Positions 4,521 to 39,000 of a stretch of 64,000 nucleotides of DNA are shown here, piece by piece. Each line of letters begins with the position of its first letter. Within the stretch, counting starts at the first letter, position 1. The stretch is from NCBI RefSeq assembly GCF_964355755.1, contig NC_092675.1:8365812-8429811 (forward strand), given 5' to 3'. Under the pieces are notes generated by a model. It had not been told where the DNA came from. It saw only the letters and a list, made by a program, of their open reading frames with translations, and searched no databases. A program made the translations under genes and the position numbers. The DNA is from Antedon mediterranea. Its lineage: Eukaryota; Animalia; Echinodermata.

Positions 4521-4629
4521 GTAGTCTATCTAAGCTTAATTCCTTGTGTTTAAAGAGAACACAATTTGATATGGTTTCGATAAGTACAATTTTCTATTAA
4601 TAAATGTTTACTTTCAGCACTATGATATC

Positions 4630-14380: not shown

Positions 14381-17300
14381 ATGCAAGTTCTACTGATCAA
14401 ACGCTTTCTGCTTGGACTTGCTACAGTGCTCTTTCACCTGTCATTCGTTAACACATCTGGATGTAGAGATAGCGCCTGTTTTCCACAAACTGTAACATTC
14501 AGTCAAATCCCAACAACCTCCATAACAGTTTTACCACCAGATGTAACATGTGACAACTCTATTTGTAAGGTACTGTAGATAAAACAAAATTAACAATAAA
14601 TAATATGTATAATTCAATTAGAAACATAGAAATCAAAAAGAATTCTACCTCAATATCTATAATTAGAACTTACATTACAATAATCAATAATCAACTGAAG
14701 TATAAATAATGATGATCTCAAAAGACAATCAAAACAAGCTGTTGGCTGTCTGCTCATCAAAGTGTGTGAACAATGTTTGTTGAATTACAACATTACATTG
14801 GCAGCACAGTAATCACATTACAATGTCTCGGTTGGGGCAAATTTTACCCTTTAGATTGACAGAATTATATCCCAGAGAAACATCAACAGTATTGTACTGT
14901 ATTACTTGTCTGCCCATGTTTGCTATACATTGTACAAAAGGAAGAAAATAAAGAAATAAAATAACAGTTTATTTAAACTCCAAACTGTACTTCCCAGTTA
15001 AAGATAATGTAGCATTTAATTGTTTAAGTGTATATTTTATATTATATTCTTTTTAGATAAGTCCAATATCTGAAAAAGTTGTACCAGAATTAATAATTGA
15101 CAATGAAGGAGAAGACACTACGACTTGGTCAAGTAAAATATGGTCCAGTACATCGACCATTCCAGAGGTCATCATTACTGTAGATCTCGAAAAAGACCAC
15201 AGTTTAGAAGATGACCTAACTATAACGTTTCGGTCTGAGCTTCCAGAAGCAATGATACTTGAAAAATCTAGCGACTACGGAGAAACATGGAACACTTTAC
15301 AATTTTACTCAACAGATTGTTTTAAAGATTTTTCAGTGAATGAAAGTTCTCGTAGCTCTGATGTTCAAAAGACTACAGATGTGTTATGTGTTAATCCATT
15401 TCAAAATCAAATTGACAATGGTGTACAGTATGTTTATTTCTTGGTTACGCAAAGGTTTGAGTTGCTTTCACCAGGCTTGTCAAATCCAGAAGAGCTTTTT
15501 ACGGGTTTAGAGGAGGATGTTGCATTAAGAGAATTCTTAAGCCTTACGAATCTAAGACTGAGGTTGTCTAGACCTACATTTAAAAATCAAACCAGTTTTG
15601 ATCCAGGAAACACATCAATGATGTATCATACAGCTCAATACGCAATTTCAAACATTGAGACTATCTTAAGGTATTTACAGAATTCTAACACTACTTCTTC
15701 TGATGTCAACCAAACATCTCTAAAGCTGACCTTCCACATAAATAATTCTAAAAATACTGTACTAGAGCTCTGTCTACACTATCAAACTAGTTTGACCAAC
15801 AAAAATTGTGGTGTGTCCAATGGTAGTGATATGCTTAAATATGGTAGTGATATGGCATCATCATGTCCACATATGGGCACATCATATTTTGTTGTCACAT
15901 AAAATGTTATAGTCAGACAGAGTTTTAACGCAAAATCTCATTTTACAATACACATAATTAGTGAGGAGCCATAACTGTTAAAATTGTTAATAATAAAATC
16001 CTTATTTATTCCAAAACATTTAACAATAAATGTTATGCTAAGAAATATATTTACTATAGTAAAACCTAACATGAAAATTATTTACTATAGTAAATATAAA
16101 TATACATTTTCTTTCTTTTCTTTATAATTTTCAGTTGCAACTGTAATCTACATGGCAACTACTGTGATTTAAAAGATGGTGAATTGTCTTGTCAATGTCA
16201 ACATAACACAGAGGGACGGGACTGCCAAAAGTGTTTACCCACCTATGATCTTGTGCCATGGCAACCGGGATCTTTTTTACCAGTCACTAAAGGTACTGCC
16301 AACAGCTGCAAATGTAAGTTTACAACTAAAGTCTCCCTGTATATTGAATTTAGTGGTGTTGTGTTGAGAAAAAAAGTGATTTGCATAAAATATGTGACTT
16401 GGCAGCCATTAGATCATTCACCCAATATTGAAAAAAAATATTTCTTTTTCTCCATAATACTCTTATAGAATACAATTTTACATACAATGAATGCAATTAT
16501 AAAAGGCTAGTTTGAATAATTTTCAGTTTTATAAATAAACAAAAAAAACCAAAAAACTGTTTGCTATTATTACGAGTGAAAACTTGACAAACATAAATTG
16601 ATAATTAAGGACCGGGTGTATTATACCCATTAAATGTGATATTGATGATATGATTCAAATAACTTTAAGATTACAAACTATAGAGGGTGGTGTACAGGGT
16701 AGGAAAATATCCTTTGGGGCATGTAGTGAAGAGTTTTGGGAAAGGGTTCAATAACTTTTCCAAATTTAAAAACCCATAAAAACCATTTAGTAGTAGTCGG
16801 ATTTATTTTAAAGTATACATGAGATGAAACAAATGAACTAAATTATGATTATGATAAATTTATGGTTGGTAAAAAGGAATCATATCTGGAATTATGAATA
16901 TTTATATCATGTTATTTTTTAAAGATTAATTTTGGCTCAGCAAGCACACCCATCAAATAATGGATAAGTCCAAACTCTTATTGTGTATCAATGCATGAAT
17001 TGTTTGACAGCACACAAAATTCCAATTACATCACAATAAAGGAACTACTTTTAAATCTCACTATTCTTCCTACCATCATCTTTATGACAATGCTTACCGA
17101 AGCGCAACCAAACAATTCATTCAGGTATAGTTAGGTTTATTCCAGTCGAAAGACCAATCCACCTTGATAACGCTTTCGTGACACTTTATTAACATATGGA
17201 CTGTTTAACCAAAGATGTCTGTGAGAAGTTTAGTTTAAGATAATAGGAATTTATAAGTGTTTATGTTGGCTGTCAGAATGAGACACAGTTGTAGTAACTT

Positions 17301-20300
17301 TTCTTGCTGTATTATTTTGTATGGCTATGCATATTATTATTATTTTATATGTATTGGATTAACACACAGTCAACAAGGTAAGAAAAGTGGTTGTATATCA
17401 CTATACTAGAAATTATTTTGTTACTGACAATGCACAATTAAAAAAAAATATGTTATACCATATAACTACAGTAATTACAGTTATATAGGCAGACTAGAAG
17501 CAGGTGACATATAGCCATTCAAATACATATAGTATACATAAGATTCTGGAGTAAATCAAGAAAGAGAAGATACTGTGATCACATTGGTGAAATCAATGAA
17601 AGTACACTTATCAAACTTGAAAACTTGTTCACAAAATCAACTTAAATATCACCTCAAAATGTTTTAAATGATTTTGCTATTCTAATGTTCGTTTTCAGTA
17701 AGTCCTATTCAAACCACCATAGCATCTATACAAACCACAGCAGCAGCTGAACTGCTTCCTACCACCTCAATATGTGAAACAGAGCCATGTGAGAATGGAG
17801 GAACTTGTCAGAAAACAAACAATGGATTCTCATGTCAATGTACTGAAGCATACACAGGTAACATTTTTACATTTCTCTATTATATCTTATTGTATGTCAA
17901 TAAGAAAGTAAACAAACACTCTTTAGAGTTTACTAAGTATGCTCCTTTGTTTTAATATACAATAGAATTGTAACACAACTAATCAAAGGTTTAAGGCAAA
18001 TCTCCGCCGCAGTTGGCGCAAATGTAAATGGTCTGTCAGTTTATACATTTTTGTAGTATAGTCAGTAGCGTTACAGAGAAAAGGGTCTTTCACACCTGTT
18101 CTGGCACGGTTTCAGTCCGACACCGGCAAATCCAATCGAATGTCAATGTTTCGCTTTTACGCGGCTACGCGCATATCGATTGCCGCACAGCCGTATGGAG
18201 CGACGTGAAAACAAAACATTGACGTTCGATTCGCCGGACCGGAACAGGTGAGAAAGACCCTCAATACATTACTCTGTGTGTTCATGTTGAAAGGTAGCGT
18301 GCAAAGTTGGCTCTCTTCGGCTCATTCATTCATCAGTGGAAAATTACTTTGTTTAATTGATTGTTTACATGTTGAATAAAGTTACAGAACCAAAAGATGT
18401 GTGTGTGTGTGTACCTGTGCTGTATGTTATGTGTTGTATTCAAAACAAGCTAAATATAACAATTTTAATATAAAAAGAAGAATTGGATACAAGTAAATTA
18501 CCAATTCACATTTTTACCGGTAGTCATGCTTTTGTTGTTTAACAGGAAATAGCTGTGAGAATGCTGTAGACCCATGTCAAAGTAACCCATGTATGAGTGG
18601 TCATATTTGTACTAATGACAACAATGGATATATTTGTAAAGTAGAAGATGTAAGTACACAATAATTACTATCACCACATACTGTAAAGATATTAGCAGGC
18701 TTTTTAACAGAAGAAGCAACACTGTGGTATATAATTCAATTATTATACTGTTATTATTTAAGTTTCAATGACTATGGACTTCGTCAAGTGAAGACGTGTT
18801 TTATCTTTATTATAATTTAATTTAAATTCATTCTGGTTATACGGTACTTCCAGAAAGTGTCCGTTGCCATTTGTTATGTCTTCTGCTGCTGTTCACTATA
18901 AATTAAATTGAAACTTTTACAGTTTTTGCTTTATTTTGTGTTGAAAATACTGCAATAAATTTAGGCGAATAAATGATAAACTGATACTTTAACACTTATT
19001 TACATTACCTGTTATTGATTATTATTATTAAAATATAGTTCTATATAAAAGGTTGGATATTATAATGTATGCACTTTTATAAAAAAAAATATTTTACCAA
19101 CTAACTAACCAGCAAATAGCTTCTTTATTTTTTTGTTAATAGTATATTCAAACAATTGTTAATAAGCTTTAAATATGAAAAAAAAAAAAAATAATGGAAA
19201 TTCTAGAGCAAATAATTATTAACTTGGATACCTTTAAATGTCATTACCATAGATACACAAAGCAACATTTTCCAACATAATCACAAAATAGGTTTGTTGG
19301 GTATATTATAATAATACCATGGAAACGTATACAATTGCTTTGGAATTTAATTTTAAAAGTAATTTTTATGCATTTGTATTTTTTAACTATATAAATATGA
19401 ATTGGCACTATTCATATTTTTGTTGTACAGTATATTGATTACTAAAAGTTTTCTAATTTGAATGCAATGAAAGATGATAAACAGCAGTCTAGATTCTAGA
19501 TAGCATCTTGACTTACTGTACACTGTAATATTGATAAAAAGATAAATATTTTGGCATATATGGCGTTTCATACATTAATAGACAAAAATATATGCCGACT
19601 CAGCTGGTGGACATCAACATAAAAAAAGACAATAACTAGATACTGTACTTTGTATACACTGTCCTTGAATAATTTTGAAGTAGTATTTGATAAAGTTAGT
19701 ACTAACTCAAATACTGGACACGTTTTTTGCTCGCCCAAAATGGTTTCCAAATACAATTTCAATAGTATAAACCTTTTTAAAAATTCTGGTCAAAAAGGTA
19801 CACTGAAATGTCTGAAATAAAAACTCTGAAATCATACACGTGTTCCAACATGTAATATACAGAATTTTGAAACATAACCATCTAGCTTCTTACATGCGGC
19901 CTAGGTCTATTCAATTCTGGCAAGACGACCACAAACGGCAATTATTTAATATTTTGAAACATAGAGGAAAATCAAATAGAGAATAACAAAATAGAACACA
20001 ATCATGCTGACTGTTCAAAGTCTCTGTAAATCATTTGAACAAACAAGAAACAGGGAAACACTGAAATCTCTTGGGAAACATTTTCTAATTTCTCACTACT
20101 AGTTAACACATCAGATATGATACTGGAAAAAATCAATAACCAATCAATTTAAGATTGACAATATCTTGTAGGATTTCCCTTTGGAAAAAACAGTGATGAA
20201 CAGTTAAAATGGTCATATCCTAATGGTCATCTGTGATCTGTAGATTACTGATGTTTTTATGATCTGGTATTTCTGGATCTTTTATACTATATATGGTCAG

Positions 20301-23300
20301 TGCCAACCTAAACAAAACTATTGTATCTCAGGGATTAATTGTCTCCCAGGGATTAATTGTCTCCTGACAAACCACTTAATAATAACCTTGGAAATTCGTA
20401 AAATAATTTCCAAGGGAAGATTGAGGGGGCTTGCTCCCTCATTTTGTTAGAGCTTTAATGTTCAAATGCTTATAAGCCATGTGTAATTAAAATTTACCGT
20501 GAAATAAATGAAGCATGGTCCGGCCGTAGAGATAGAATAGCCTTCGGTTTTATTATACCTATACTGTAGGTCTAATCAGTCTGCCTTAAGTTTTAGTAGT
20601 GTACAGTATGTGACTGATGAGCTATAGCAGCTACTGTAGACACTATGGGCTAAGTACTCAAAGTCATAATCTTCAAAGTTATATATTACTGTATACTAAT
20701 GTGGCTACTTAAACAAACTGTTATTGATCCAAAAGAAAACCGTAAGATACATAGCAAATGCTCCTCCTTTATCCCATTCCAATCCTTTATTTTCTTTATT
20801 TGGTCTTCTTAAAATTCAGGATATTAACCATCTTCAACAAAGTGTTTTCCTTTATTCATGGCTAAACTCGATCCTGCCATCACACTTTGATGATTTATTT
20901 AGTTTCAATCTTAATTTTCATAACCACACTACTCGGAGCGCTAATTAAATACGTATTCCTTTTTTTAAAACTACTTCTTTTAAACATAGCATTAAGTTTA
21001 CTGGTCCTAAACTCTGGGATAACGTACCAGTTAATATAAAAAGTGCTTTGTCTAAGAAGAGTGTTTCTTTTAAATTGAAACGGCACCTCTTATCTAGTTA
21101 TGTTTAATTATCCTTTCACTCATTGTAGTTTTGATATTTAGTCTTTTCGGTACCCTGAAACTAAAAGTCTTCATTACTGTTTTTGTCCTGTTTCCGGTTC
21201 CTGTGTTGTCCTGTTTTATTTTTCAGTTTCTATGGGCTGCCTTATACAAGCTTCGCTTTCTAGGAATGTTGCCCCTCTTATTTTAATCATATTTACTGTT
21301 AATTTTTATTTTCTATGAAAGACAAGAAGAGAAATAAATGTTACTTTGATTGATTGATTGATTGATAATTAGTAAATTACAATGCTACAGTACTGTATGA
21401 TGACATAATGAAATGCAGTACAGTACTGTATGATGACATAATGAAATGCAGTGTGTATTTACACATTCACTCTACAATGAATTCAAGCAATTAAAATAGG
21501 CTCTTGGGGTTAATTGAATAAAAGTTCCTTAAAAAAGACTATCTATAATAATGATACATAGATATCTATATTATTATGCATCAGGTAAAGTAGCTAATTG
21601 AATAAGACAAATGTGGGTATGCTCTGACGAAAGATTTAAGATCTACCAGAGTATAACTTAAATGTTTTAAATGTACTGAGCACTGGTACAATTTTAATTA
21701 TAAGTACAGTGTATTATAAAGTAAAGTGTGTTCTACAGGTAAACCATAATTCCGAAAATATAATTTGGTGTACATTGGTGGAGCTCAATTCCTTCATACA
21801 CTTAAAACTTTTAGCGCCACCAATTTTTACCAGAGGTTAAAGGTCATTATGTCTAGATATTTTTAAAATGCATGTCTAATTAAAAATCAATACATCTGGT
21901 ATCAGTCATATTGTTTATAGATTGTCTATTTATATCTGTGTTTGATTTTGTCACTTTTTAATTATTCGTCACTAAGCTTTTTAATTAATCAATATAATAT
22001 ATTGAGCTTTCATATTGTAATTTAGATTTAAATTCTATGGCATTTAGTGATATGTTACACGTTTAGGGCATGCAAATATAATTAGTGTGTTTATCTGGTA
22101 AGTCAGAATTAAAATTGTTCTATAGGCAAATATTTTTATTTAGTAAATGTTTTGTAGATATTAGTGTTACAATGATGTAGTACTGTACTCTAATGGTATA
22201 ATTGTTCTATAGGCAACAGTTTTAGCATGATACGACTATTTAGTCTTTCTTTTAGAATGTTATACTGTAGTGTCACAGTGACATCTGTTAATGAGTAGTA
22301 TAATTTTGTTCAAACTTATCTGATATTTGAGTCATCTCACCGACTTGAAATCAAATCGTTTTTGTATTTTTGTGGATTAGTGAAACAATTAAAAATCAGA
22401 AAGAAATCTTCTTTGTTGGTTAAATTTTACTATTATGCCTCCTTTAGTATAAAATGCTTACATTTTTTAGATTATAAAAACACATTTAATTATTTCAAAT
22501 ATTCACAATACTATTAACCATTATTTATTATAATTTTTATATTTCTTAACAGGAAAGTGGTTTATCTAAGAAAACTATCATTACAATAGCAGCCGTATCT
22601 GGTGGTACTGCAGTGTTCATTGTATGGGTGTGTTTTATAATTTACTACGGAACTTACAGACAAAAATTGCAAACGATGAACCGCAAATCTCAGAAGTATA
22701 ATGTACAAACAGCTAAGGTAAATGGTCAGTCTATGTCCGGCCATTACACTGTAAGTTAAATAAAAAATATTGATAAAAAGCATATACCCCCCTCATCAAT
22801 GGGATTCTACCCTTGCACCATTTATCCTGCTTTAACCTTTGACATGGTGTAATGTTATTTTTTTTAAACTTTTAACCAGCTAGTTAAAATTTACACACAC
22901 CTATATATTACCCACTAACACTCATACTTGATACAGCTACTGTAATCTACACTGCATTTTAACTTAATATTATTAAGAAAAATATTTTGGCACACATGCC
23001 ATTTCATACGTAAGTACTTGACATTGTAATTTACAGACAGGATACCAAACATAAAGAAGATAGACAAATACAGTATGGCCTATTTTAATAATTATTCCAT
23101 GGTAATACTGGATCCTTTAACACAATGAAAGAGCATTAAATGAAATCTAGTTTACTTAAATATACAGTCTAGAACACTTAAAAGGGATAGCCATATTTTG
23201 GAAACAAACAAACCAAGTTAAAATAATCATTTGAGTTTCAAAGGTTCTTAAAAATGACTGAAAATATTTAGTAAACAAAGTTTAAACGGTATATTTTCTT

Positions 23301-26300
23301 ATTAAAATGAGCTGTTAAGCAAACAATATGGAGAAATTGACCTTTACTAATGAATCCTATCTGCATTAGTAAAATAACAAGTAATGAACAATACATTGTT
23401 AACAAAAATAGCCAAATTAACATAATTTAAATAGTTTATATTCTATTGTTCCCTTTTTTTTGTTGGTATTTTGGTAAAAATTACTTTTTCTAACTGCATG
23501 GTATTTTATTTACCGACCTTCCTCCAAACCTCAATTACTGGTCTTATTTCTACTCTACTATCTAAAAATTATGAATTACTATTCAGAATATTATATACTA
23601 CATTATAACAACAGTACTGTATATTAGTTTCAACAAAAGCTAACACAGCGCAATATTAGTCTATATCCATTTTCTAATACCCAAATATGCAAGTGCTTCA
23701 TTAACTTACAGTTATTATCATAAAGCAATTTTGCTATTGGCGTAATTTATATATAATATACAGATAACAAATTACTATAACTGTAATTTATAATAGCTAG
23801 TAAATATGAAAATAAAAGACATGATATTTTTTTTTTTATTTAAGAGCATTAAGCAATCGCAATTGCTTGGTGAATGAAGATTAAAACCAAATAGTAACTT
23901 CAAATTGTATGCAATTTTGTGTTTATTGGGTAAAGATATTCAACAGAGGGGTTTTAATATAATATAATAAAATAATAATAATATATACTAATATAAAATT
24001 GGAAAAGCACTTTTACTTTAATATTTTCATTAAAATAATAGAAATTTAAAATAACAAAAAATAAAGATAGCATTCTGTATACTTCACGCTTGTATAAATA
24101 TTATAAAATAAAGCAAAATCCTACTATTGTTATTCCAACCATAGAAGAGTACAGATTTGTTGATACCTGATGGTTTAAGCTCTGCAAGAGTGCATGAACT
24201 CCAAGACAAATGGAACATCAAAGAAAACAACCTGATGTTGGGTAAGCTGCTCAGAAGCGGCAAGTTCTCATATGTGTGCGAGGGATCGCTGAAAGAAGAC
24301 GATGATACCGTAGCCGAAACCAAAGTTGGTGTCAAGTTACTTAAAGGTATCAATAACACATTTTTAATGATCACAATCAAAAAAAATAATATTACATATA
24401 AATATAAAAACAATTTATAATTTTATTTTTATTATTATCAATGAAAATTTCAATTTAAAAATCCGCAATTCTGGCAAGATGTTATAAATATTTTCATAGA
24501 ATCTTGTTATGTATTGAAAATACAACAAAATATAAAACTTTTACATTTTGACTCATATTCTCCACCAAAATACACAACTTCTTGGCGTGTCCAATGGTGG
24601 GAATAATTGATTTGATTTTAGTAAATTCTTTTAATTGTTTATAGATGAAAGCGATGAGACAAGTAAAAATGAGATGTTAAATGAGTTTAGTATTTTGTCT
24701 ACTATTGGCAAACATAATAATACAGTACATCTACTAGGAATGTGCACCAGAGTACTGGAACAATCAAGTAAGTCAACAGCAAACCTTTTCCACAATCTGT
24801 GGCCTAATATTCACAAATCTTAAGAAATATATTAAAAAAAACTTAAGACACCAAAAAACACTTCATGGCGAGACAGAGGTCCAGTGGCTAACATAATAAA
24901 TATTTAAGGATTTGTCTTATGATTTGGTACTGTATTTTAATGTAAATTTGTCCAAGCCGAGTTGTGGACGCCGAGCCACTGGACCTCTGTCTCGACATGA
25001 AGTGTTTTTTAGTGTCTTAAGTGTTTTTGCAGAACTCCATTTGGTTGACTGAAACATGGAGTTTTTTCCTTCATAATTGAATGTCTATGCGATGGCATAG
25101 CAATTAATCAATCAAAAGATTAAGTGACATTGGACATTTAGAAGGCTTTTGCATATACAAAAAAAAAAATATCCTTTTCATCATAAATACAGTTTTATTG
25201 AGAAAAAAAATTACCTTTCCATGCCAGTACAGTAGTTGATATTGACTGAAAGTTGATATCAACTAACATCAATGTATCAATAAGTTTGTCTGAACAGTTT
25301 TAATTGTAATGCAATCCATTCTTGTTTCAGCTCAACTTTGTTTAGTATTGGAATACATTTCTAGAGGAAATATGCTGAGGATTTTGAGAAGGTGCAGAAG
25401 CAGGCGAAGGGACCAGCCCCCGATAGATGCCCTCCCAGAGGATGAACTGCTTGGATATGCTAATGATGTCATCCAAGGTCTCAAGCACTTAGATTCACTA
25501 GGGGTAAATTATCCTTTTTTATATTCAGACTATAGCATACAATTCATGAAAAGGTATCAGACCTGTGAGATTACATATTCAAATGAGTAACAATTTCTAC
25601 AATAATAACAAATTTGGGAAAACTATTCTAGCAACATTAAAAGCATCACAAATATAATTTTAAAGCATCCTGGTACCTGTTTTGATAAAAATTTGCTATA
25701 CATTTTCTCTATGTGTTTTTTAACATTTTTGATGCAGATTCCCGATAGCCACAACCTACCCTTAAAAATCCAATAACTCTGCGACAGATTAGAATAATAA
25801 ATAAATATAATAATTATTTCTAATGAATTATAAATTGTTTTCTCTAGATTCTTCATTTGAACATATGTGCAGAAAATGTTCTCATCACGTTCAACAATAA
25901 AGCAAAAATATGCGACTTCAGACGATCTGTTGAGATTCAAGAGCCTGAGCAATATATTAAGTACACTCCTCATCATGATGTAAGAATGCTATGGATTTAT
26001 ACAGTCACCTTTTTCCAAATCGAACTTTTTCAAAAAAGATCTGCAATTCTTTCCTACTGTTCAAAATGTATTATGAGAGACTTTCTAGAAAAAATACATT
26101 TTGTCACGTATGTGTTAGAAAAGTAAGATTATAGAGGATAAAAACGATTAATATCGTACTTGAAAAAAAATGTCAACTTGACATGATTGAGGCTATGTCA
26201 AAAGAGGACCATCCCACCTCCCTCAGTCAAAACAAGATTGAGCCTTCAATTGTTCCTTTTCTGCCAGACCAAGGGGTTTGGTATTATGAGAGTTTTAATA

Positions 26301-28080
26301 CTTACATATCTAAGACACCACCACTTTTGTATGTGCAATAGATATCAATTATCATAAAAATTGTGCAGAAAATAAAACAAGATGGAGAAGCAGGGACACA
26401 CCATGATATCCCATGTTCCACAACCGACACAGTTGAATTACACATTTTTTCTTCTATCATTTCAAAAGAAAAGCTTGCCATTACATACTATATGTATGAA
26501 TATAAATGAACAATAATTTCTCTTTACTTAGGAACAAAAGAAAAGGTGGATGGCATGTGAAACACTAGACGGAATCTACAACACCAAAAGTGAAGTGTAA
26601 GTCGCTGCTATGCTTTCATTTAATTTCATTTAAAACTTTATTACACAGTACAATGCTTTATAATACACCATAGTTTTTAAATTTAAAATATCAGATACTA
26701 ACTAGCAAAAATACCTGCCAGTGCCACCCCACACCCACACTCCCCTCGCCATCTAGAAATATTATGGCAAGATGGGATTTGAACCAAGCATGTCAACCAC
26801 AAACCTACAACGTCACTCAAAAATTATCTTTCTAGCAGCACACAGCAGTGTGTATGCTTCTGAGCTGCATGTAGTGTTGTAAAAGAAGTGCAGTAACTTC
26901 TGGGTGTCATTTTTAACTTCTCCATAAACAAATTCAATAATAAAAAGTATTAATTGTATTATTATTTATTTCATAGCTGGTCATTTGGAATGTTATTGTA
27001 TGAAATTGTAACATTAGGTAAGTACAGTACATTTAAGACACTACATAGGATATTATCAAGTAGACATTTTGAATTGAATTAATGTGTGAAATGCCAGATG
27101 AGATAGGCTTCAGTATAACAGTAGACTCATCATGAAGAAAAAAAACAACAAATTCTTCATTCTTCTTCTCTTTTATATGGTGTCACCATCACCAAACTTG
27201 GAAAGGAATAACAATAAAGTATGATGATAGTGTTGATGTGTACAGCATAGAGCCTTACATTACAAAACATTCTTCTAAAGCTCTGTCTATACTATCAAAC
27301 TAGTTTGACAAAAAAAGTGTGATGTGTCCAAACATGGTAGTGATATGACGTCATCGACAGTATACAGTATAATAAACTGTGGATTCTCAAAATGTCAATT
27401 TTTTGGTACACAAACATTAAAAGATAAAAGCATACCTTATCAAAACCATTTACTACTTGCTTCTCAGGTGGAATCCCATATGCTGATATCAAGATACGGA
27501 ACTTGAAAGAGAAGCTTAAGGAACACCATCGCATGGAATGGCCACGGCACTGCTCTCAAGATCTCTACAACCTTATGCTAAGCTGCTGGCATCGGCGTCC
27601 AGAAAGTAGACCAACTATCAACCTGTTGTCCAAAGAAATGAAGCTTTTTAAATCATCAAGCAAGGTATTAATACAAATTTAAATCAATGTAGTAATATAT
27701 ACAAAATATTGAATGTAAATTATTTGTATAACACATAAACTATACTATATATATCTATACTACAGTATACTGACAACCAATGACCTAACTAGGTCAGATC
27801 AATTGATAAATTCATCAAAACTGTGTCGAGCGTGTATTATCCCCGCTCAATGAATTAACATGACATACTTTGTTCGTCCATTGTCTCAAATCAAAAGCTT
27901 CCTAATAACAAATTCATAAAAAATGATTGCTTGTTTTTTAAAATAGTAAATTTACTTTTCTCCTTTTTTTTCTTTCAGAAAAACCTCTGTTTAAAGGACT
28001 ACCCTTTCCAAATGTATGTGGCTATCAGATATCCAGAGGAGTTTGATGATCCTATGGCTATTCAAGACTCATTTGTTTAA
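14381..28080 (+). CDS. Netrin-G-like ectodomain receptor tyrosine (pseudo)kinase, 814 aa; 14 exons: 14381-14569, 15057-15670, 16135-16313, 17699-17857, 18546-18649, 22553-22717, 24145-24346, 24645-24767, 25331-25503, 25848-25979, 26532-26596, 26977-27017, 27468-27664, 27979-28080
   Basis: All junctions are GT-AG with compatible phases, totalling 2445 nt. Order: signal peptide; LN domain (MILEKSSDYGETW..FYSTDC); LE (CNCNLHG..CQCQHNTEGRDCQKC..PWQPGSFLPVTKGTANSC); EGF (CENGGTC..CQCTEAYTGNSCE); TM (IITIAAVSGGTAVFIVWVCFIIYY); TK domain (VGVKLLK, RWMACE, SEVWSFGMLLYEIVTLGGIPY, LMLSCW..RP). Confidence 0.85.
15766..15923. mobile_element. ~155-bp MITE family, copy 2
   Basis: agctctgtctacactatcaaactagtttgac...tagtcagacagagtt; same core as the copy at 12769. 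Confidence 0.8.
18082..18261. mobile_element. MITE, Harbinger-like
   Basis: TIRs agggtctttcacacctgttc / gaacaggtgagaaagaccct. Confidence 0.7.
20700..21366 (+). mobile_element. CR1/L2-group LINE 3' fragment
   Basis: IQKKTVRYI..SHSNPLF..LLKIQDI..HNHTTR..GPKLW ORF2 C-terminus, AATAAA and a (TTGA)n tail at ~21347-21366. Confidence 0.85.
21388..21452. repeat. 33-bp tandem duplication
   Basis: cagtactgtatgatgacataatgaaatgcagt occurs twice in tandem. Confidence 0.85.
24841..25022. mobile_element. MITE/foldback with ~49-bp inverted arms
   Basis: acttaagacaccaaaaaacacttcatggcgagacagaggtccagtggct is inverted by agccactggacctctgtctcgacatgaagtgttttttagtgtcttaagt. Confidence 0.8.
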
Positions 28081-30013
28081 ACTTTTTTGTGCAATATTTT
28101 TACGCCTTGATTAACTATCATAAGAGACATCCACTATTTGCAGCAAAAAGTTTCAAATATTCAATTACTTTATTTTTACTATTACTATCAAAGAACAACA
28201 CATAATTGAAGTAAAACATTTTTTTTGAAATATGGAATAAAGATTTGATACTCCAATATAGTATCAATTTTATCAAGTTTTGAAACAACAACAACAAAAA
28301 AACAATATCATTTGGACATGAAAAGGAGAGTAAAATACTGGTAACAACAACAATCATTCTGTTATAAAGGAAGCTTTCCTAAAATTACCATACACACACT
28401 TGGGCAAGATGAAAATGTATCCCTTTAATTTCTGAAAAGTCACAATTTAAAAATTGTCCGGCTTATCTTAATTTCCAGTTAATGAATAATGTCCAGTGTT
28501 TTAAGTATTAACTTCTAATGGTAACTTAAGTGTTTATACCAAATACTCATAATCTTTACATGCTGTCATTGAGCAGGCATTAAGTATTTAAATTTAATTA
28601 AGATGTTGTACATTTTTAATACTAGGAATATCTTTTTCTAATTTAGCTTTCTTTTTTCAGACAAGACATTAGTACAGTTTAATTGAATTAAGATGACAGA
28701 TAATAATATAACTTTCAGTAACTTACAACTTGTGTTCATATAATTTTAAAGAATTTTATAGTAAACTAAACTGAGGAAATAATAAAAATTATTATTATTA
28801 AAACATTATCAATTATTAGTATGATTTTAAAATGTATTACTTTTAAATTATAATAGTTAATTTATTTGAACAAAGATATATTATAAGCATAATAAAAAAA
28901 TACAAATAGGTATTGCTTTTTCCTTGAACATTTTTTTGAATAATTTTAATAAAGATATTTGACTGTTTTAGTAGTAGTCTGTATTCTGTATTTTTTAACC
29001 ACTTCTAAACAATAGGATAGTGAATTACATAAATTACATTTTTATGAATCTACCACATGAATTTCCACAGAGTTTGCGATAGTTATTGAATTGAATAGCC
29101 CAAACCTATTATTCTTTGGACACAATTTTCCATACGGACTAGAAGTGCATCTATCTCAAGGCTTTACCTTTGGTAATGCTCTAATACCTCCATAATCAGA
29201 TGATTGTTGTGCGGAAAATGGCATTCAATTCTAGTCAATTTAATAAATACTTATCCATGGTATACCTCCCCTATTAATTTTTGCAATGTCTCATTTTCTG
29301 GAGAATCACCAGAAATTGTAACATCTGGTTGATCTACCTAACTTCTAAAAAAATAAATCAGACTGTTTTTATAGCAAAATATTAATATATATCTTCTTAT
29401 TTTTATAGTATCTGGTATAACAACCTAATGTATTCCAGCATCAATTTTATTCCCATGACAGCACAGTACAAAAGGACATCCATGTGTTTCTATCCTAGCC
29501 TAAACTTGGGATTTATAAATAGGGCATATACTGACCCCAAATAATACTCCTGGTTCTAATCGTATGCCTTTTCTCTTCCTGTGTTAATCCTGTACAAAGT
29601 TAGCGAGATTTCTTTCATAATATTTCTTTCAAATTCTGTATTTTAAACATTTAATATTCTAACTTAATTTTTTTTTCTTTGGGGGGTTATTTTTGTTGTG
29701 ATTTCTGTTGTGAAACATTTTTCATTTATGGTAATGTAACCAAATATTATATCTGCCTGTACCTTAAAAGGATTAAGAAAGGATTAATCATGCAACAGCA
29801 ATCATGAATGTATTATTAATTCCAGCTATCATAAAGTCTTAAGCTCTGTGTACACTATCAAGCTAGTTTGACAAAAAAATGTGATGTGCCCATATATGGA
29901 CATGATGATGTAATATCACTACCATATTTGGACTTATCACTACCACACATTTGTTGTCAAACTTACCTTTGAATATTTAACTACATCGATAAGTGAATGC
30001 CTGCTGTAGCACA

Positions 30014-33000
30014 CTACATGTTAGCCACATGATCCGTAAAATCAGTTTCTATATCCTCAGAAGGTCCAGCAAGATGAACTGTAACAATTTCATGTAGTGC
30101 TTTGAAGTAACTGGATTCATTTCCTACAGTATAATTATGTTGAAGTCGTAAATGTTCCAGTGTCAATGGTATAAAACTTTGTTGAAGTTCTATACCAAAT
30201 GTCCGCAAACCTTCTGATGATATTTTACTATTGAAGCTACAACAGAATAAATAAGCGTTAATATTTAAAACACTTTTTCTTTACGGACAAAAATGATTAG
30301 TACAATTTTTAGAATAAAAAAAAAGTGTGGAATCGTATCTTGTATGACACTAGTGAGACACACCAACATTTGTACTCTTGATAGAAACTTTCCTATATTT
30401 GATATATCAAATTTATACGATGTATTTTTAAACAGTACAGCACTATAATATAATTGACATTATACTATGGTATCAACATTTTTTAAATGGTTAAATGTCT
30501 GATGTTGCAGGAAATGTGGGGTTTTATTTAAAATGAATGCATTTTGAATGTTAAAACTAATTTAGTATTAATGAAATATTATGAAAATTCTTGTTTTTTT
30601 GGGAGAAGTCATTTGAGAGAGTAAACCGAAGAAAGCTGTACCTGATATCCATTCTATTCAATTGAGAATTAGATGACTCATCTGTCAGTCCTTCTGCAAG
30701 TTTCATGAGACATGCATCACCTGCAGATAAGGCATAAAACTGTGATATCAGGTCTTCATGAGCGCCTTAGGTGCTAGTTACGCCCGGTTGAGTTCAAAAA
30801 CAGTGTTTTAAGTATTAACTTCTAATAGTAACTTAAGTATTTTCTATTTGCAACATTATGTTCACTATTATCTAGATATTTCCAAAAATAAGTCAAAAAA
30901 TGCCCAGTGAGTAATTAGGTTTATTCCAAAATTGAAGTATGGCAACTATTATGTGAAAGAGATTACAGATTTAAGTTGTCACAGCTACGACTTCAAACTG
31001 CATAACAATTGCATTAAAAAAACAAAATTAACATTATGTTATGGTCGATGGCAGCCGCCATATTGTGCGGTCCCGGTCCATGAAGAATCACTTTTTAAAC
31101 TGCAATAACATTTGAGTCTGCCCTCTAGCCAATCTATAATACCTCAATGGTGACAACTTACTTAACAAAGTAGAAGCTAGACCCAGATACTTTAAGTGTT
31201 GGTTATTCATCATAGCAGAAAGCAGTTGCATTACAAAATCTGTAGTAATACCTGCAAAAGAATGTTACTTCTTAGCAATTAGTCTATACATTCCCAAGGT
31301 TTCAATGTAACACTTGAAATTCAGAAAAGCTTAGTAAACTTGTAATAAAATATATGAATATTTAGTATTTCTTAAATTCTTAATGTTTTTTTTATTTAAA
31401 AGATCTAAAATACTTTCTATTAAAAACAATAGAAATATTGAAAACTATACATTTTTCAGAATTGTTTATTTTTGGCCAGTTTGTTCGGTTTTCTTTGTCA
31501 TAGAGTAAACCATATATATACATATACCAAACACTGGTATTTTTTTAAACTTACCTTGATCCGAAAGTGTAAACTTAGTTTGGCCTAGGTCAAGGAATTG
31601 TAAGCATCCATCTTGGAACAGTTTTACAAGTGATGACTGCATGCTGTTGGCTTGATTGCCATGCACACTTAAAAAAATGATTTTCTTGTTTTCTGAAAAA
31701 GTAAACACTCTAATATTAAACAAGACCTTATATTACATAGCCTATGTAAATACGCTAACGTGATTGGTTGAAACTGCATCACATGACTACCGCTGCGAGG
31801 ATCGTAAATCGTATATATCCTCGAGAACGATGATATTGACTGTGTAATTTTCGCGTAATTATCGTGTCCCCTGTCATTAAACATATAGATTCTCGAGTAC
31901 GATGATATTGACTGTGTAATTTTCGTGTGCCAACACTCGCGTTGCCGATAAATAAACAAAAGTCATCTACTCGATCTTGAACTCGGGTGGAATTGTCACT
32001 CCATTGCAAGACAACGTTTCATCCGCTGGGCCACGGAATTTGCTTGAAGAAATTAATCTTCTAAACTATTTAAGCTATGCATACATAGCGCCCTCATTTG
32101 TTATAAGTCCACCCTAAATGTGATGAAACACCGTTTGTGATTGGTCAATACTCACGGTAGTAACCTAGTAACTAGTACGCGCTGAACATCCGGTGATTCG
32201 GCTCCTCGAAGATCGAGAGAAGACGAATTGTTTATTCGGCCTACCTGATTATAATATTATTATTAATAGGCTTATTGATGGAAATTCTTCTGTTAATTTA
32301 AACGACCTAGGCCTAAGTGAATATTTTATTGCCAAGGAATCATTAATTATCTGTATATTATTCTTCGCAAGGTAAGGTGTCTAGGCAGGCTTGTTTTAAA
32401 TACAATACAAATAATAGGAGGCCTAGCCTAGCTTCACCCAACCCAGCAGACTTGTTCTTGGCTATATAATATAACAGATATTGCCTTTTATATCGGTTAA
32501 ATATAAGATTTGACATCCCCTCGGGAATGATATTAAGTTCTCGGGGAATATATATTTCCCTCAGCTGGCGCTTCGGGAAATATATATTCCCTCAAACTTA
32601 ATATCATTCCCTCGGGGATGTCAAATCTTATATTTAACCTCTAAGCAGTCAATATCTGTATAATAATTGATGGTTATTGTACAAAACATAGCAGCAAAAT
32701 ACATCAATTAATCAATGTACAAAATAAATGAAAACGAAAATTGAATAATCACATAGATATAAATTAATTGTTTCTTTGTACTTACCAGATACTATTGAAA
32801 ATAGTTGTGACAGCATCAATGATGTCATTGAACAAAACTCCAATGAAAGATGGGTAATAAAATTGCTTGTTTCTAAATCATATAACATATTAAATCATAA
32901 GCAAACTTGAAATCATATTTTCCAAGGATGGAATGGACATTGATAAGAAAAAAAAACACTTGCATATCTTGATTTGACTTAAAAAGCATAATATAACTTT

Positions 33001-36000
33001 TTCTCTCATCAGTATCAATTAGTAATAGTTCTCTATTATGTTACAAATATTTAATGAATAAGTTATTCTATTATTCATATGCATATTAAAAATGCATAGT
33101 TTAAAGTGATATACAATTCAATTCAATAAACTTTATTGTCTAACTCATGAATGGCTTGAAACTTTGGCTGAAAGTACACACATTAACATTGTCTAAAAAC
33201 ATTGTCGCACAGACAGTAAAATAGAATAAAATCACATAAAACAGAGAACAAGATGTTATATAAAAAAGTTAAAAGAGGACACACAAAGTACAAATTGAGT
33301 TAAAAAATAGCTAAGATACTTATTGCGGTTATCGTTTCCACATTAAATTAAAATGCCTCATAGCAGATGGGAGAAAGGATCTACGTAGGCGTTCAGTGTT
33401 CCAGCGAGGATATGTAATGCGCCCAGACCGGCTTACCTGTAATTCCTTGATAACGTATAATTTCTTGTAATGATTTAAAACAACCTGAAATTATATTTTG
33501 TTCGTAGCTGAAAACCGACGGTAATCGTTGTCCATTATTCACACTTAGCCCTAGACAACTCAAAATATCAACACTGCTTGATATATCTATAGAAAAAAAA
33601 CATGGTAAAGGGACAAAATAGAAAGAAATACTACACCATTATCAAAATTCTAAATGCAGTTACTGATTTATAATTTTTTCATTTTTCAGAATATATAGGA
33701 TTTGTTTCATGCCTGTTTATAAAAATATTTGGATCCGGGTTGGTTACTCTTAACTTTTTTCATATGGCGAGGTGCCGCATTTACGGGGGATAATTTCGTG
33801 GGCACAAGTGTGGAAAAATATGGGAAGTTGAAGCATTTATGGGGTATATTTTCAATGATTTGGTAGCACAAGTGTTGGAATTGTTCCATAGCCATAGCTT
33901 CAATTAGAGAGCCATTCAAATAATATATAATAGACGTTCCAGTCACCCAGTTAGGGACCATGTCAAAATTATTCTACTGCACTTACTGCAGTACTGTAAC
34001 TATATTTTACCATTGTCTATAAGTTCAAGTTCCTCCAATCCATCAATATTCGAAAACAGGTCCCTTAATGTGTCCATTCTTTCAATTAGAAAACCGACAC
34101 CAATAAGTGAAATTTTTCTGAGTTGAGAAATGGCGCTGCAGGGAAGAGGGTCTACCTTTAGATCGGATCTGTCATTTTTCATACGCTTTTTAGGAGGCTC
34201 GGCTGAAGAAGACATTAAACATTCTGGCACTGAAATAAAAAAAAACAAAAACACTAATTAACATTTGAATTTGTTCAAATATAATTTACTATTAAAGAAA
34301 GTTAAAATAAAGAGAAACTGAAGGCAGGCATCAATAAGGGTTTGTTTTTGCTGAAAAGGTATTTTTAAGAAACCATTGGTAATTTGTTACAAAAACCTAC
34401 ATAAAATAAAACTTTTTTTCATTTATTGATCGTTGATGGTTGGTTTTTATAATGACATCATTATTGTCCAGAGCAGTCAAATGTTCACTCCTTACAGTAA
34501 TCTTATGAAGTTCATAATAATCATAATCTTGGTTTAACAAATTGAAGTTTAAAAAGTTAAGTCAAATTGAGACTTTGATTAACTATGTTGCAGCTAAGAA
34601 TTGTTCCAAGAAAACCAGTATTTACAATCAAGTTCACAGTCAATTATCATTTGAAAAAAAAGTTGGCGTTTTTGTGTGGTAGTGCAATTTCTAGTGAAAG
34701 CAGAAATAGGCCCGAAATAAAGTTATAGTGGGTAGGGGATTTTATATATGAGTGAAATTCTACAATCAGATAGAATACAAGAATAAAAAAAGAAGCAAAA
34801 AATGCAGACAACTGCAGTACTTACACTGATGTTTTCTTGATACAAGATATAGAAATTGATCTAAAAAATAGTATTTCACATCCTTCAAAGTGATTGTATA
34901 AAGATGACCTTTCTGTAACAACTTGTGAATTATATCAGCAACAGCTTCAGATTCAGAGGGAAATAGTAAATGTTCAAATGTAATTTCTTCTACATTATTA
35001 GCAAGAATTTCAAGAGCAATTGGATTGTTTGCCAGGGTATTGCAAGTTTTCCCCCAAATATTGATTGATTTAGGAGTATACTTATAACAGGATTTGCTTA
35101 TGTTTAAACAAGCTGGTTGTACTAGAGGGTCTGTCAACGCTTTAATGACTCTTTCATCTTTCTTGTTATCTGAAAGAAAAAGACAACATCTTTTGATAAT
35201 AGGTGAAAGAAATTAAAACCATTGGTTTGATTAAAAAATTGCAAGATTACTGTTATGTAATAGTATAATTTCAATATTATAGAATTCACCAGACATTTAT
35301 ACTCCAATGACCAATGTAGTCTTCACAAATTCGTCATATAGACATTCCCATAAAAGAATTGACCATGAGTTGTTTATCAAGAAATATTAGAACCAATTCA
35401 TCATATTTAAGGATCAACAGCTTTGGAGCAAATATATATCACAACAACAAAAAATGATGTACAGTCTACTGTTAAGACACTATCAAACTAGTTTGACCAA
35501 AAAAGTTTGATGTGCCCAAATATGGTAGTGATATGCTTAACTATGGTAGTTGGTAGTGATAAGACATCATCATGTCCATATATGTGCACATACCATTTTT
35601 TTGTCACATATCTGTAAGGTTTAATTGTGTAGACAAGGCTTTAAAAGTACTGACCATCAAAAAACATTAGCTGTCTCAATAACATGTTAGCCTTATTGTC
35701 ATGATACTTCTGTCTCCAATCACATTGACTTATATCACCTGGCAACCGAAACTCTCTTCTTCTGTTGTACTTGTTGATCTTGCATTTCTTTTTAAAGTGT
35801 TTTATCCATACATACTGTGAATTGATGCCTGAAGTTTGTAAAAAGCATTATTGTTATGGAAAAACTTAAAAACACCTTTTCAGAACTTAGGCCAAACATA
35901 TGTACAAATGTTTTACTTGGTGTAATATTTTTTGTATTTCGATGTTTTTTAAGGGGCAACTGACTCTTTGAGTTATAGTAATTGTTTTGCTTTAGTTGCC

Positions 36001-39000
36001 CCTGACCATTGTGCTCTGTTTCTGTTCTGTTCTGTACCTGTGTATTGGTCGAATAAATAAATGAAATGAAATATGTGTTATAAGTAAAATTACACAGCCT
36101 GAATGAAAATACAATTTGCTATCTTAGATGGACTATAATTCATTTTTACTTTAAAGCTTTTACACAGGTAATCTGTGAATTCCACTTATTATTTTTAGGC
36201 ATACTGTACATGGGTAAAATATAAGACAATAACTGGCCCTATGTGAACATTCATGAACGCATGGCATACGACTTCACTCAACATCATTGCAGGGGGTAAA
36301 TGTTTCCAAACTGTGTGAAAGCAGACCTCCCAACAACTCTCCTTTTTCCCATGTTTATCAAGATAGCAATATCTTTCTATTTTAATAGCGCCCTCTCTGG
36401 TTTGAATAAATGTTATAGTGTGCCCTCTATAGTTTCGACATGCTTTCAATAATCCTTTTTTTCCAAGTTGGGAGGTCTGCGAAAGAATGGTAGAGCCGAA
36501 AATACATACCCTTAACATTTAAGTCATCATGAAAGGCATTCAAACAGCAAATGGGCAAAAGATGAATTAAATCACAAAGAACATGATGTGGCAAATCTAA
36601 AAAGAATACAAAATAACATTTATTAACAAATCCCTTTGTTTTTGCACTTGATTTACATATTTCTACTTATACTACTCTCTCTATCTATGGCCTGTTTAAA
36701 TAATTTTAAAGAGGCCTAGCCTAGCTAAGCTAAGCGGCGCTTTAGACCTAGCTTAAGCCTAGGCCTATGCTCTCTGGTTAGTAGAGGCAAATATAATAAA
36801 TAATAGTTAATACTGCTGAGGCCTAACTAAACTAGCTAGCTAGAGTAGCTAGCTATAGAGAGTGTTGACAAAGTGCGAGGCAGCGAGGCACGCGAGGCAA
36901 GCGAGGCATGCCAAATATTTGTGCGAGGCATCATTTTATCATTTCCAAAAGTGCGAGGCATGCGAGGCATATACTGTAGTTTACAATTTCAAAAAGGTGC
37001 GAGGCATATCTTAACGTGCTATTATGATATATTATAGGCCTAATAATCAATCGATACAAGCGTATCTAAATAGATTCGTGTATACACTCATCATGTTGTT
37101 TATTTTTATGTAACGATTGTTTTTTCATTCAAATCATATCGTGTCAAATTTTACTTTTACAAAAGTGCCCAAACTACGGTTCAAAAATCTGAACGACAGT
37201 CTTCAACTTTCGATAAACAATAATTGTTATAGCGACACACTCATCAAATGACTGCAATGTTTGTTGGCATTTCGAGCGTGTTCACTCACATGTCTCTCGA
37301 ACATAGCAGAGTGAAAATAATATTTTGTCACACCCCTGCGCCTAGATCCGGTAGACCCGAGAGATGGACAATCCCTCTTTACTATTTAGCAGGTAGCGGA
37401 ATGATTCAGCCCTCAGCTCAGAGGATCGTGGTGCATTCCCCTCCTATAGCACGTGGTTTCAGCAGCAACGCACAGACTTCTCTCTGAGCGGCGTGCCAAA
37501 GACTTTTTTGACATTCCATTCTCTAGGAACAACACGTGTACCTCTCTCGCAAATAAGGTGAACAGCGATTGCCAGGACAAGTTCAATAACTGGCGGTGAA
37601 TAAAAGGTAACTGATATGCCGATCCAATAACATGCCGCAAAGAAAAAAATTGCGACAGAATTCTGGAGCGCGTGTGAAAAAAGACTTACGTCCGACAATT
37701 GTAATACTAGGCCTAAAATTAAACTTTAGCTAATATGCTTAGCCCTAACCTAGATAAGAGGCCTATGTAGAAAATAATTTAATCAATTTTGATAAAATAA
37801 TAATTGGTGTAATATTTAATAATGATACACTATTCCTGTTTTAGTAAGCTAGGTATATTACGAACGATTTTTATTTATTGTTGTCCATGTACGTACTAAT
37901 AAACCTGGCGCTAGTTTCCTTCGCTTGTATTTTTACTCCAAATTTGATAACTAACTTTATCGTGTGAATACCACACCTTAGAAGTATACCTCATGAGTAC
38001 TTTAATGAAAGAATCACATAAAAAGTAACAAATAAATCCTTAAATTAATGATTTTACAGGCGTGTTTCTCGCACACTGTTCGCGAATTTCACTTATTCAA
38101 TGTTCAATATTTTTGTTTCTATGGAGCGCCAAAAGAGCAACGATAATAGAGGACTAAAACTCAGTGGAATGCGTCAATTTCTCATGCATTTATTGGTGAA
38201 AAACACGTTTTATTTCAATATATTTGTTAATTTGTCAATAAAAATGTTGTAATATGTTACTGCTGATACTGTTCTGTTTTCAAAGAATAATAATCGATCC
38301 TAAATCAACATCACTACCTAGTCTAGACCTAGGACATCCTACTAAGGATATTATGATGAATTTTTCTATTTTATTCTTTAAAAGGTTAACGAAACCGTGT
38401 ACATTATCAACAGTAACATTTTTCCTTACTGACAGTGACAAAATCTATTGAAATTGTACTTGATTTTCACCAAATAATGCGTTAAATATAAATGGATTCC
38501 ACAGAGTTTTTAGCTCTCTAATTAATTTTGCTCTTTTGGCGTTCCATAGAAACCAAAATATTGAACATTGAGTGTGCGAAATGCGAGAAAAACAACGTCT
38601 GTAAAATCACCAATTTAATGGATTTATTGTTACTTTTATGTGATTTTTCTTCATTAAAGTAGGCCTACTAATTCTAAGCTGTGGTATTCAGGATAAAGCC
38701 TTGGTTAAATTACAAGGCAGGTGCAAAAGGAAACTAGCCTAGCGGGCCTAGGCCTAGGCTACTTAAATTTCGGTGATTTCCTGCCTTGCAATTTTGAGAA
38801 ATGATAAAATGATGCCTCGCATTTTTTGATGATGGTAAAACGATGCCTCGCATAAATTTCTGACTTGCCTCGCATGCCTTCCCTGCCTCGCGTGCCTCGC
38901 TGCCTCGCACTTTGTTACTACCCAGCTATAGATAGAGGGCCTTGCCTCTACTAGGCTTCTTAGGCTAGCTAGCCTCTCCTAGGCCTAGGGCCTAGCTAGG

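What the first reader, a model, noticed from the sequence alone, without database searches (positions are those of the whole stretch)
24145..26596. The kinase domain has pseudokinase hallmarks
Seen in sequence: Gly-loop reads LRSGKFSYV instead of GxGxFG. The catalytic loop is ILHLNICAENV (HRD->HLN, catalytic Asp->Asn at 25860-25862). DFG->DFR, APE->ACE, SDVW->SEVW. The beta3 Lys (VGVK), alphaC Glu (NEF) and DFG Asp are retained. The frame is intact across 8 exons, which argues against decay. Inference: a catalytically impaired co-receptor or scaffold comparable to ERBB3 (also Asp->Asn), PTK7, RYK or ROR, possibly still binding ATP.
Basis: partly seen in the sequence, partly recalled or inferred. 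Interest (0 to 1): 0.72.

Follow-up and report, generated by a model that had tools for sequence, protein, structure and literature searches.

The report
Netrin-G-like receptor with dead kinase
This feather-star gene encodes a cell-surface receptor that joins a netrin-G/laminin-like outer domain to a tyrosine-kinase domain lacking the key catalytic residue in every echinoderm and acorn-worm counterpart examined, so it likely signals as a non-catalytic scaffold and may bear on the origin of our synaptic netrin-G proteins.

Summary
In detail: every motif lies where stated, in an open 14-exon, 825-aa frame, and spliced contigs from two studies carry the HLN/DFR exon unchanged. The gene matches Antedon mediterranea XP_071953444.1. 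Orthologues occur in all five echinoderm classes and three acorn worms. The catalytic Asp is missing in 12 of 12 (Asn 7, Lys 3, Arg, Ala), as are the first Gly-loop glycine, the DFGxxR arginine and the P+1 proline; the beta3 Lys, alphaC Glu, catalytic Asn and DF are kept in 12 of 12. DFR and ACE are Antedon-only and SEVW crinoid-only, so they are not family hallmarks. The pattern resembles HER3, not PTK7/ROR/RYK; the kinase sits in the RET/FGFR/TIE group. I found no description of this architecture. Whether it is the netrin-G orthologue or a separate offshoot of laminin-beta/gamma-like is unresolved in my trees. Verdict: an ancient, apparently undescribed ambulacrarian receptor tyrosine pseudokinase family; inactivity inferred, not assayed.

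The parts
14381..14569 (+). Exon 1: start codon, signal-peptide-like hydrophobic stretch, start of laminin N-terminal domain (extends the partial RefSeq model by 37 aa)
   Evidence: aligns with Anneissia N-terminus by eye; start codon inferred
15057..15670 (+). Exon 2: laminin N-terminal (domain VI) core
   Evidence: Pfam Laminin_N E 3e-29; covered by X5 contig 11 over 15055-15668
16135..16313 (+). Exon 3: laminin-EGF module LE1
   Evidence: Pfam EGF_laminin E 1.8e-08
17263..17377 (+). Putative alternative first exon (coding part) with its own hydrophobic leader, giving a short isoform without the laminin domain
   Evidence: in-frame with exon 4, GT donor at 17378; X5 contig 13 ends at 17375 with 30 further letters; inferred, the joint itself was not listed
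17699..17857 (+). Exon 4: Ser/Thr-rich stalk and first EGF module
   Evidence: Pfam EGF E 1.3e-4
18546..18649 (+). Exon 5: second EGF-like module
   Evidence: cysteine pattern and alignment with orthologues; no EGF Pfam hit on the exon alone
22553..22750 (+). Exon 6: transmembrane helix (aa ~425-447) and juxtamembrane part; alternative donor after 22717 removes 11 codons that include a Tyr
   Evidence: both donors seen in contigs; both forms annotated in Anneissia with identical 11 residues
24145..24346 (+). Exon 7: degenerate Gly-loop LRSGKFSYV (24250-24276) and beta3 Lys545 (VGVK 24325-24336)
24645..24767 (+). Exon 8: alphaC Glu562 (NEF 24680-24688)
25331..25503 (+). Exon 9: hinge, family-specific basic insert (RRCRSRRRD), alphaE
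25848..25979 (+). Exon 10: catalytic loop HLNICAEN (Asn652 for catalytic Asp at 25860-25862), DFR (25914-25922), activation loop
   Evidence: 0 differences in X5 and X9 contigs
26532..26596 (+). Exon 11: P+1 loop without Pro (KKRWM), ACE for APE, SEV
26977..27017 (+). Exon 12: alphaF
27468..27664 (+). Exon 13: rest of C-lobe
   Evidence: Pfam PK_Tyr_Ser-Thr E 5.2e-12
27979..28080 (+). Exon 14: tail with Tyr800 (28000-28002), Tyr805 (28015-28017), terminal DSFV (28066-28077), stop

Best explanation
This is an intact, spliced crinoid gene for a single-pass receptor whose tyrosine-kinase domain lacks the catalytic aspartate, as do all 12 orthologues examined, and which therefore likely works as a non-catalytic adhesion and signalling scaffold. 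Shown: architecture laminin-N + LE1 + stalk + 2 EGF + TM + kinase fold + tail; loss of the catalytic base, Gly-loop, substrate-binding and phospho-activation residues across Ambulacraria; retention of Lys/Glu/Asn/DF, two tail tyrosines and a terminal F-V. Inferred steps: (1) the laminin-N domain of the long isoform binds a cell-surface or basement-membrane partner and clusters the receptor; (2) the folded pseudokinase domain, probably with Mg-ATP bound as in HER3, serves as a docking or allosteric surface; (3) an active kinase phosphorylates the tail tyrosines in trans to recruit SH2 proteins; (4) the [ST]-F-V end binds a PDZ scaffold; (5) a short isoform without the laminin domain acts as co-receptor or modulator. 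The defect predates the echinoderm-hemichordate split.
For: Motif counts in 12 species: of 54 positions at least 90% conserved in 45 control tyrosine-kinase domains, the 4 lost in all 12 are Gly-loop Gly1, catalytic Asp, DFGxxR Arg and P+1 Pro; the AAR Arg is kept in 2 of 12, the HRD Arg in 4 of 12, the activation-loop Tyr in 5 of 12. Lys545, Glu562, Asn657, Asp670, Phe671: 12 of 12. The 12 kinase domains form one clade (SH-aLRT 100) with hemichordates, crinoids and other echinoderms as successive groups. Kinase identity Antedon-Anneissia 243 of 286 (85%) against 124 of 205 (60%) for the laminin domain. AlphaFold2 kinase region mostly pLDDT 81-98, TM 0.86-0.90 to RET/FGFR. Tail: both Tyr 12 of 12, F-V end 12 of 12, S/T at -2 in 11 of 12. 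Spliced contigs in two studies. Short isoforms with their own leader in Amphiura, Ptychodera and a cluster-mate of the Holothuria protein; the echinoid models examined have only the short form.
Against: No assay. Retention of the four ATP/metal residues is weak evidence of ATP binding: 29 of the 54 conserved positions are invariant anyway, so four of four has a chance near 0.08; bulky residues at Gly1 (12 of 12) and Val/Ile at the beta3 Ala in 2 of 12 could block the pocket. HER3 and JAK2 JH2 with HRN show low phosphoryl transfer under some conditions (PMC13519141). No ligand, partner kinase, PDZ protein or expression site was identified. The AlphaFold model was built on an alignment rich in active kinases, so its fold leans towards them.
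Confidence: 0.7

Rival explanations
1. Low-activity, HER3-like kinase: binds Mg-ATP and transfers phosphate weakly when clustered, and that trickle matters.
For: Lys, Glu, Asn, DF all kept in 12 of 12; Asn at the catalytic position in 7 of 12; precedent for HRN domains.
Against: The position takes Lys, Arg and Ala in 5 of 12, so no chemistry is conserved there; substrate-binding Arg and P+1 Pro also lost.
Confidence: 0.12
2. Nucleotide-free scaffold like PTK7/ROR/RYK: the ATP pocket is blocked and the domain is purely a binding surface.
For: Gly1 replaced by large or charged residues in 12 of 12, Gly3 by S/C/A, an invariant Tyr follows it, beta3 Ala is Val/Ile in two species.
Against: The occluded human receptors alter the DFG Asp or Phe and keep HKD; here DF is invariant.
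Confidence: 0.3
3. A decaying or misassembled copy of an active receptor kinase, peculiar to this genome.
For: DFR, ACE, loss of a residue after ACE and deletion of part of the laminin-domain loop are Antedon- or crinoid-specific.
Against: Same letters in spliced contigs of two studies; 12 of 12 orthologues lack the Asp; the kinase is more conserved than the ectodomain; 5 of 6 listed differences in kinase exons are synonymous (a partial list).
Confidence: 0.02
4. On origin: the ectodomain was taken independently from a laminin-beta/gamma-like gene by exon shuffling onto a TIE-like kinase in the ambulacrarian stem, and the likeness to netrin-G is shared ancestry at one remove.
For: LN+LE1 mean identity is slightly higher to echinoderm laminin-beta/gamma-like than to vertebrate netrin-G in 8 of 9 family members; second tree groups them 53/19; this grouping not rejected, p-AU 0.264; laminin-N has been reshuffled three times in netrins (PMC3516229).
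Against: First tree groups the family with netrin-G, 65/73; LE2 of two hemichordates is closer to netrin-G (52 vs 45%, 46 vs 39%; 3 and 2 comparators); LN-LE1-stalk-EGF order and optional LE2 resemble netrin-G isoforms.
Confidence: 0.5

Closest known systems
HER3/ErbB3 (receptor tyrosine pseudokinase)
   Same: Catalytic Asp to Asn with beta3 Lys, catalytic Asn and DF kept (PMC13259870 Table 2); docking tyrosines in the tail.
   Different: HER3 keeps the Gly-loop, HRD Arg and DFG Gly and lacks the alphaC Glu; unrelated ectodomain; here the kinase is nearest RET/FGFR/TIE.
PTK7, ROR1/2, RYK
   Same: Pseudokinase-only receptor lineages without an active paralogue of the same architecture.
   Different: They keep HKD and alter DFG; Ig, CRD/kringle or WIF ectodomains; PTK7 and ROR2 rank 15 and 32 in the structural search at 27% and 24% identity against 35-36% for FGFR1.
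Netrin-G1/G2 (chordate GPI-anchored synaptic adhesion proteins)
   Same: Best PDB match of the whole protein, E 1.5e-55 over residues 18-350; a family LN+LE1 fragment scores E 1e-51 to 1e-53 on netrin-G against 1e-23 or weaker on netrin-1, laminins and netrin-4; LN-LE1-variable stalk-EGF order.
   Different: TM helix and pseudokinase instead of a GPI anchor; NGL-binding loop I (AMGNPYMCNN) is not conserved in the family and is deleted in Antedon; sister relationship not shown.
Laminin-beta/gamma-like (invertebrate laminin chain)
   Same: LN+LE1 at 33-42% mean identity.
   Different: About 1,900 aa with many LE and laminin IV domains; no TM or kinase.
TIE2/TIE-like receptor kinases
   Same: Best single-domain PDB match of the C-lobe plus tail, with the alignment running into the tail; weak tree neighbourhood, SH-aLRT 88.
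   Different: Margin over RET is about 1 bit; TIE ectodomain (Ig, EGF, FN3; recalled, and seen in P0224) absent; TIE2 is active.

Membership tests
Pseudokinase (sequence definition) | Lacks at least one of beta3 Lys, HRD Asp, DFG Asp | tested here: met
   Asn652; Asp absent in 12 of 12 orthologues; definition from PMC13519141 passages
Pseudokinase (functional) | No or negligible phosphotransfer | not testable with these tools
   needs an assay
Receptor tyrosine kinase superfamily | Signal peptide, ectodomain, single TM, tyrosine-kinase-type domain | tested here: met
   (PK_Tyr_Ser-Thr E 5e-61)
ErbB/HER3 | HRN-type loop with Lys, Asn, DF kept | tested here: met
   (HLN; DFR here, DFG in 6 of 12)
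ErbB/HER3 | Leucine-rich/cysteine-rich ErbB ectodomain | tested here: not met
   Pfam shows Laminin_N, EGF_laminin, EGF only
PTK7/ROR/RYK | HKD kept, DFG Asp or Phe altered | tested here: not met
PTK7/ROR/RYK | Occluded ATP site | not testable with these tools
   no coordinates returned; needs binding assay
FGFR (RefSeq label of several orthologues) | Ig ectodomain and placement in the FGFR clade | tested here: not met
   no Ig domain; outside the FGFR-like clade supported at 96 (FGFR labels assigned by me from motifs)
TIE | Kinase domain sister to TIE | tested here: inconclusive
   no vertebrate TIE sequence in the tree
Netrin-G | LN + LE1 (+LE2-3) + EGF ectodomain | tested here: met
Netrin-G | GPI anchor, no cytoplasmic domain | tested here: not met
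   TM plus kinase domain in all long isoforms
Netrin-G | NGL-binding loop I | tested here: not met
Netrin-G | LN-LE1 sister to chordate netrin-G | tested here: inconclusive
   65/73 in one tree, opposite grouping 53/19 in another, p-AU 0.264
Laminin-beta/gamma-like | Long LE array and laminin IV domains | tested here: not met

The most novel reading that the evidence does not exclude
This family is the ambulacrarian orthologue of netrin-G: the deuterostome ancestor had a netrin-G receptor (pseudo)kinase, and chordate GPI-anchored netrin-G arose by losing the transmembrane and kinase part. Netrin-G would then not be chordate-only, and its need for lateral co-receptors would reflect a lost signalling domain.
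Probability: 0.3. Interest if true: 0.82.

Novelty: new variant of a known kind. Interest (0 to 1): 0.64.

Why it matters
Receptor tyrosine pseudokinases are known mainly from eight human proteins. This is a separate, apparently undescribed lineage that has kept a dead catalytic site since the echinoderm-hemichordate ancestor, with an ectodomain type (laminin N-terminal) for which my searches found no description on a receptor kinase. It is filed in databases as 'uncharacterized', 'FGFR3/4-like' or 'Netrin-G1', so it can mislead FGF-pathway work in sea urchins and brittle stars. It is testable in established embryos (sea urchin, sea star, Saccoglossus, Ptychodera), and it gives a concrete candidate for the pre-chordate history of netrin-G.

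Tried and rejected
No whole genome was held, so copy number and synteny in this species were not tested. First exon models were off by one or two bases and were corrected. A candidate 32-nt exon near 23041-23072 was dropped: contigs join the TM exon directly to 24145. One search was swamped by repeats and listed no useful joints, so exon 3-4 and exon 1-2 joints rest on contig lengths and on orthologue models. No run is on record as RNA; splicing is read from intron-skipping contigs. No non-ambulacrarian orthologue was listed (top 150 of 47,523) or 40 (20 hits at E<=1e-60 among 4,339 candidates of 522-1,663 aa); this does not prove absence. No amphioxus or tunicate netrin-G and only one poor outgroup (an aberrant Xenopus netrin-4 model) were available, so the root is unresolved; Gallus netrin-G1 dropped out on a pattern miss, and most LE2 columns were trimmed from the tree. 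HER3, PTK7, RYK and vertebrate TIE were not in the kinase tree. True dN/dS was not possible (no orthologue DNA). ESM Atlas gave only generic RTK clusters. The first AlphaFold model was poor (mean pLDDT 56.7). Whether Sp-Tk9/Afi-Tk9 of PMC8180256 is this gene could not be checked (supplement unreadable); the supplement of PMC3516229, which may list these LN domains, was also unreadable. Earlier-findings look-ups returned nothing. No complex prediction was run: no candidate partner sequence was at hand.
Full report
Gene and observation. The window is AT-rich animal DNA. Splicing 14 exons from 14381 to 28080 at GT..AG sites gives an open frame of 825 aa. The model minus its first 37 residues equals XP_071953444.1 of the feather star Antedon mediterranea, a partial 'uncharacterized protein'. 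Contigs from run X5 (organism A, study P2) and X9 (organism B, study P3) skip the introns from the TM exon to 26977 at the modelled joints and show no other letter over the HLN/DFR exon. Neither run is on record as RNA; splicing is read from the joints. Assembly error is excluded.

Architecture. Pfam finds Laminin_N, laminin-EGF, EGF and a tyrosine-kinase domain; a TM helix lies at about 425-447. The best PDB match of the whole protein is netrin-G1 (E 1.5e-55, residues 18-350), followed by RET and FGFR kinases. An AlphaFold2 model on 54 sequences has mean pLDDT 80.1, a confident kinase fold and TM 0.86-0.90 to RET/FGFR; that alignment was rich in active kinases.

Family. Three homologue searches, one representative search and three cluster look-ups found orthologues in crinoids (Anneissia), a sea star (Acanthaster), a brittle star (Amphiura), sea urchins (Strongylocentrotus, Lytechinus, Diadema), sea cucumbers (Holothuria, Apostichopus) and acorn worms (Ptychodera, Glandiceps, Saccoglossus). 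I counted one protein for each of 12 genera, leaving out isoforms, L. variegatus (same loop), D. setosum (not examined) and a Patiria ectodomain fragment. The 12 kinase domains form one clade (SH-aLRT 100, quick tree of 42 rows) in which hemichordates, crinoids and the remaining echinoderms separate as expected for orthologues. No member outside Ambulacraria was listed, which is not proof of absence.

What is conserved. The catalytic position is Asn in 7, Lys in 3, Arg in 1, Ala in 1, Asp in 0 of 12. Of 54 positions at least 90% conserved in 45 control domains (picked by an intact HRD loop; some are near-duplicates), four are lost in all 12: Gly-loop Gly1, catalytic Asp, DFGxxR Arg, P+1 Pro. 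The AAR Arg survives in 2, the HRD Arg in 4, the activation-loop Tyr in 5. Beta3 Lys, alphaC Glu, catalytic Asn, DFG Asp and Phe are kept in 12 of 12. Losses thus fall on phosphotransfer, substrate recognition and phospho-activation. Since 29 of the 54 positions are invariant anyway, keeping four ATP/metal residues is only suggestive of ATP binding (about 0.08 by chance). DFR and ACE occur only in Antedon, SEVW only in the two crinoids. The kinase is better conserved than the ectodomain (85% against 60% for the laminin domain between the crinoids); 5 of 6 listed read differences in kinase exons are silent, from a cut list. Two tail tyrosines and the final F-V are invariant, with Ser/Thr at -2 in 11 of 12; reading this as a class I PDZ ligand rests on recalled motif knowledge. 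Family-specific invariant residues cluster in a basic insert, the TFNN turn and WHR..ESRP, candidates for a binding surface.

Isoforms. An 11-codon alternative donor in the juxtamembrane region is used in X5 versus X9 and is annotated with identical residues in Anneissia. Short forms with their own leader and no laminin domain exist in Amphiura, Ptychodera and a Logan cluster-mate of the Holothuria protein; the echinoid models examined show only the short form. In the window a candidate alternative first exon ends at 17377 in phase with exon 4, consistent with contig ends; this is inferred.

Mechanism. Most likely a non-catalytic adhesion/co-receptor scaffold (0.7): ectodomain binding and clustering, a folded pseudokinase used as docking or allosteric surface, tail tyrosines phosphorylated in trans, PDZ anchoring. 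Only the anatomy and conservation are shown; every interaction is inferred. Whether ATP is bound is open (about 0.6 yes).

Comparison. By PMC13259870 Table 2 (parts 1-3 of 8 read) HER3 has HRN, Lys and DFG but no alphaC Glu; PTK7, ROR and RYK keep HKD and alter DFG. The family works like HER3 in motif pattern and is a member of none. Its kinase lies in the RET/FGFR/TIE group, weakly nearest TIE-like kinases. For the ectodomain, PMC3516229 and PMC10084454 (passages) call netrin-G chordate-only and nested in laminin-beta/gamma-like; PMC4000137 and bioRxiv 10.1101/034645 (passages) trace it to an ascidian gene. My LN+LE1 trees do not decide between netrin-G (65/73) and laminin-beta/gamma-like (53/19; p-AU 0.264) as sister. 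LN+LE1 identities lean slightly to laminin-beta/gamma-like (8 of 9), LE2 and domain order to netrin-G. The NGL-binding loop I (PMC3230378 passages) is not conserved and is deleted in Antedon, so NGL binding is not predicted.

Novelty. Ten literature searches (listings seen) showed no description: six gene or protein ids gave 0 papers, and 'netrin-G' with 'echinoderm' gave 5, of which the two relevant ones state absence. The library lacks most subscription papers, including the 2006 sea urchin RTK survey cited, and two supplements were unreadable. Sp-Tk9/Afi-Tk9, an FGFR-grouped kinase without FGFR domain structure (PMC8180256 passages), could be this gene. The proteins are in RefSeq with both Pfam domains precomputed, so the architecture is on record but, as far as I could search, not discussed.

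Verdict. Observation confirmed; interpretation partly supported; new variant of a known kind; interest 0.64.

Noticed in passing
window 4904-10141 (+): Multi-exon gene with DUF5580 N-, middle- and C-terminal matches (EF-hand-like; C1orf87-like by recall), directly upstream of the receptor gene. Useful as a synteny marker.
   Followed up: partly
window 2243-4525 (-): LINE-type reverse transcriptase reading frames, broken into at least two frames (RVT_1 E 2.9e-37).
   Followed up: partly
window 40105-43876 (+): Cytosolic-type sulfotransferase gene, five exons with Sulfotransfer_1 matches.
   Followed up: partly
window 44902-63316 (-): Long multi-exon cadherin-repeat gene with a TM-like exon near 46651-46956 and an acidic cytoplasmic tail; runs towards the window end.
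   Followed up: partly
window about 30017-36666 (-): Exon-like reading frames of a convergent downstream gene, with a possible nuclear-localisation-like PPKKRMK near 34200; no convincing Pfam match.
   Followed up: no
window 12790-12927, 15766-15900, 27274-27350, 29869-29931: Copies of a very high-copy short repeat family in introns and flanks; thousands of contigs lay on them.
   Followed up: no
window 95-703 (-): 203-aa reading frame beginning MGVTLGK, resembling an N-myristoylation start; no Pfam match.
   Followed up: no
P0146, P0156, P0228 (sea star and unnamed proteins): A separate echinoderm family of EGF-repeat receptor kinases with intact HRD, labelled Cad96Ca-like or FGFR-like; not orthologous to this gene.
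   Followed up: partly
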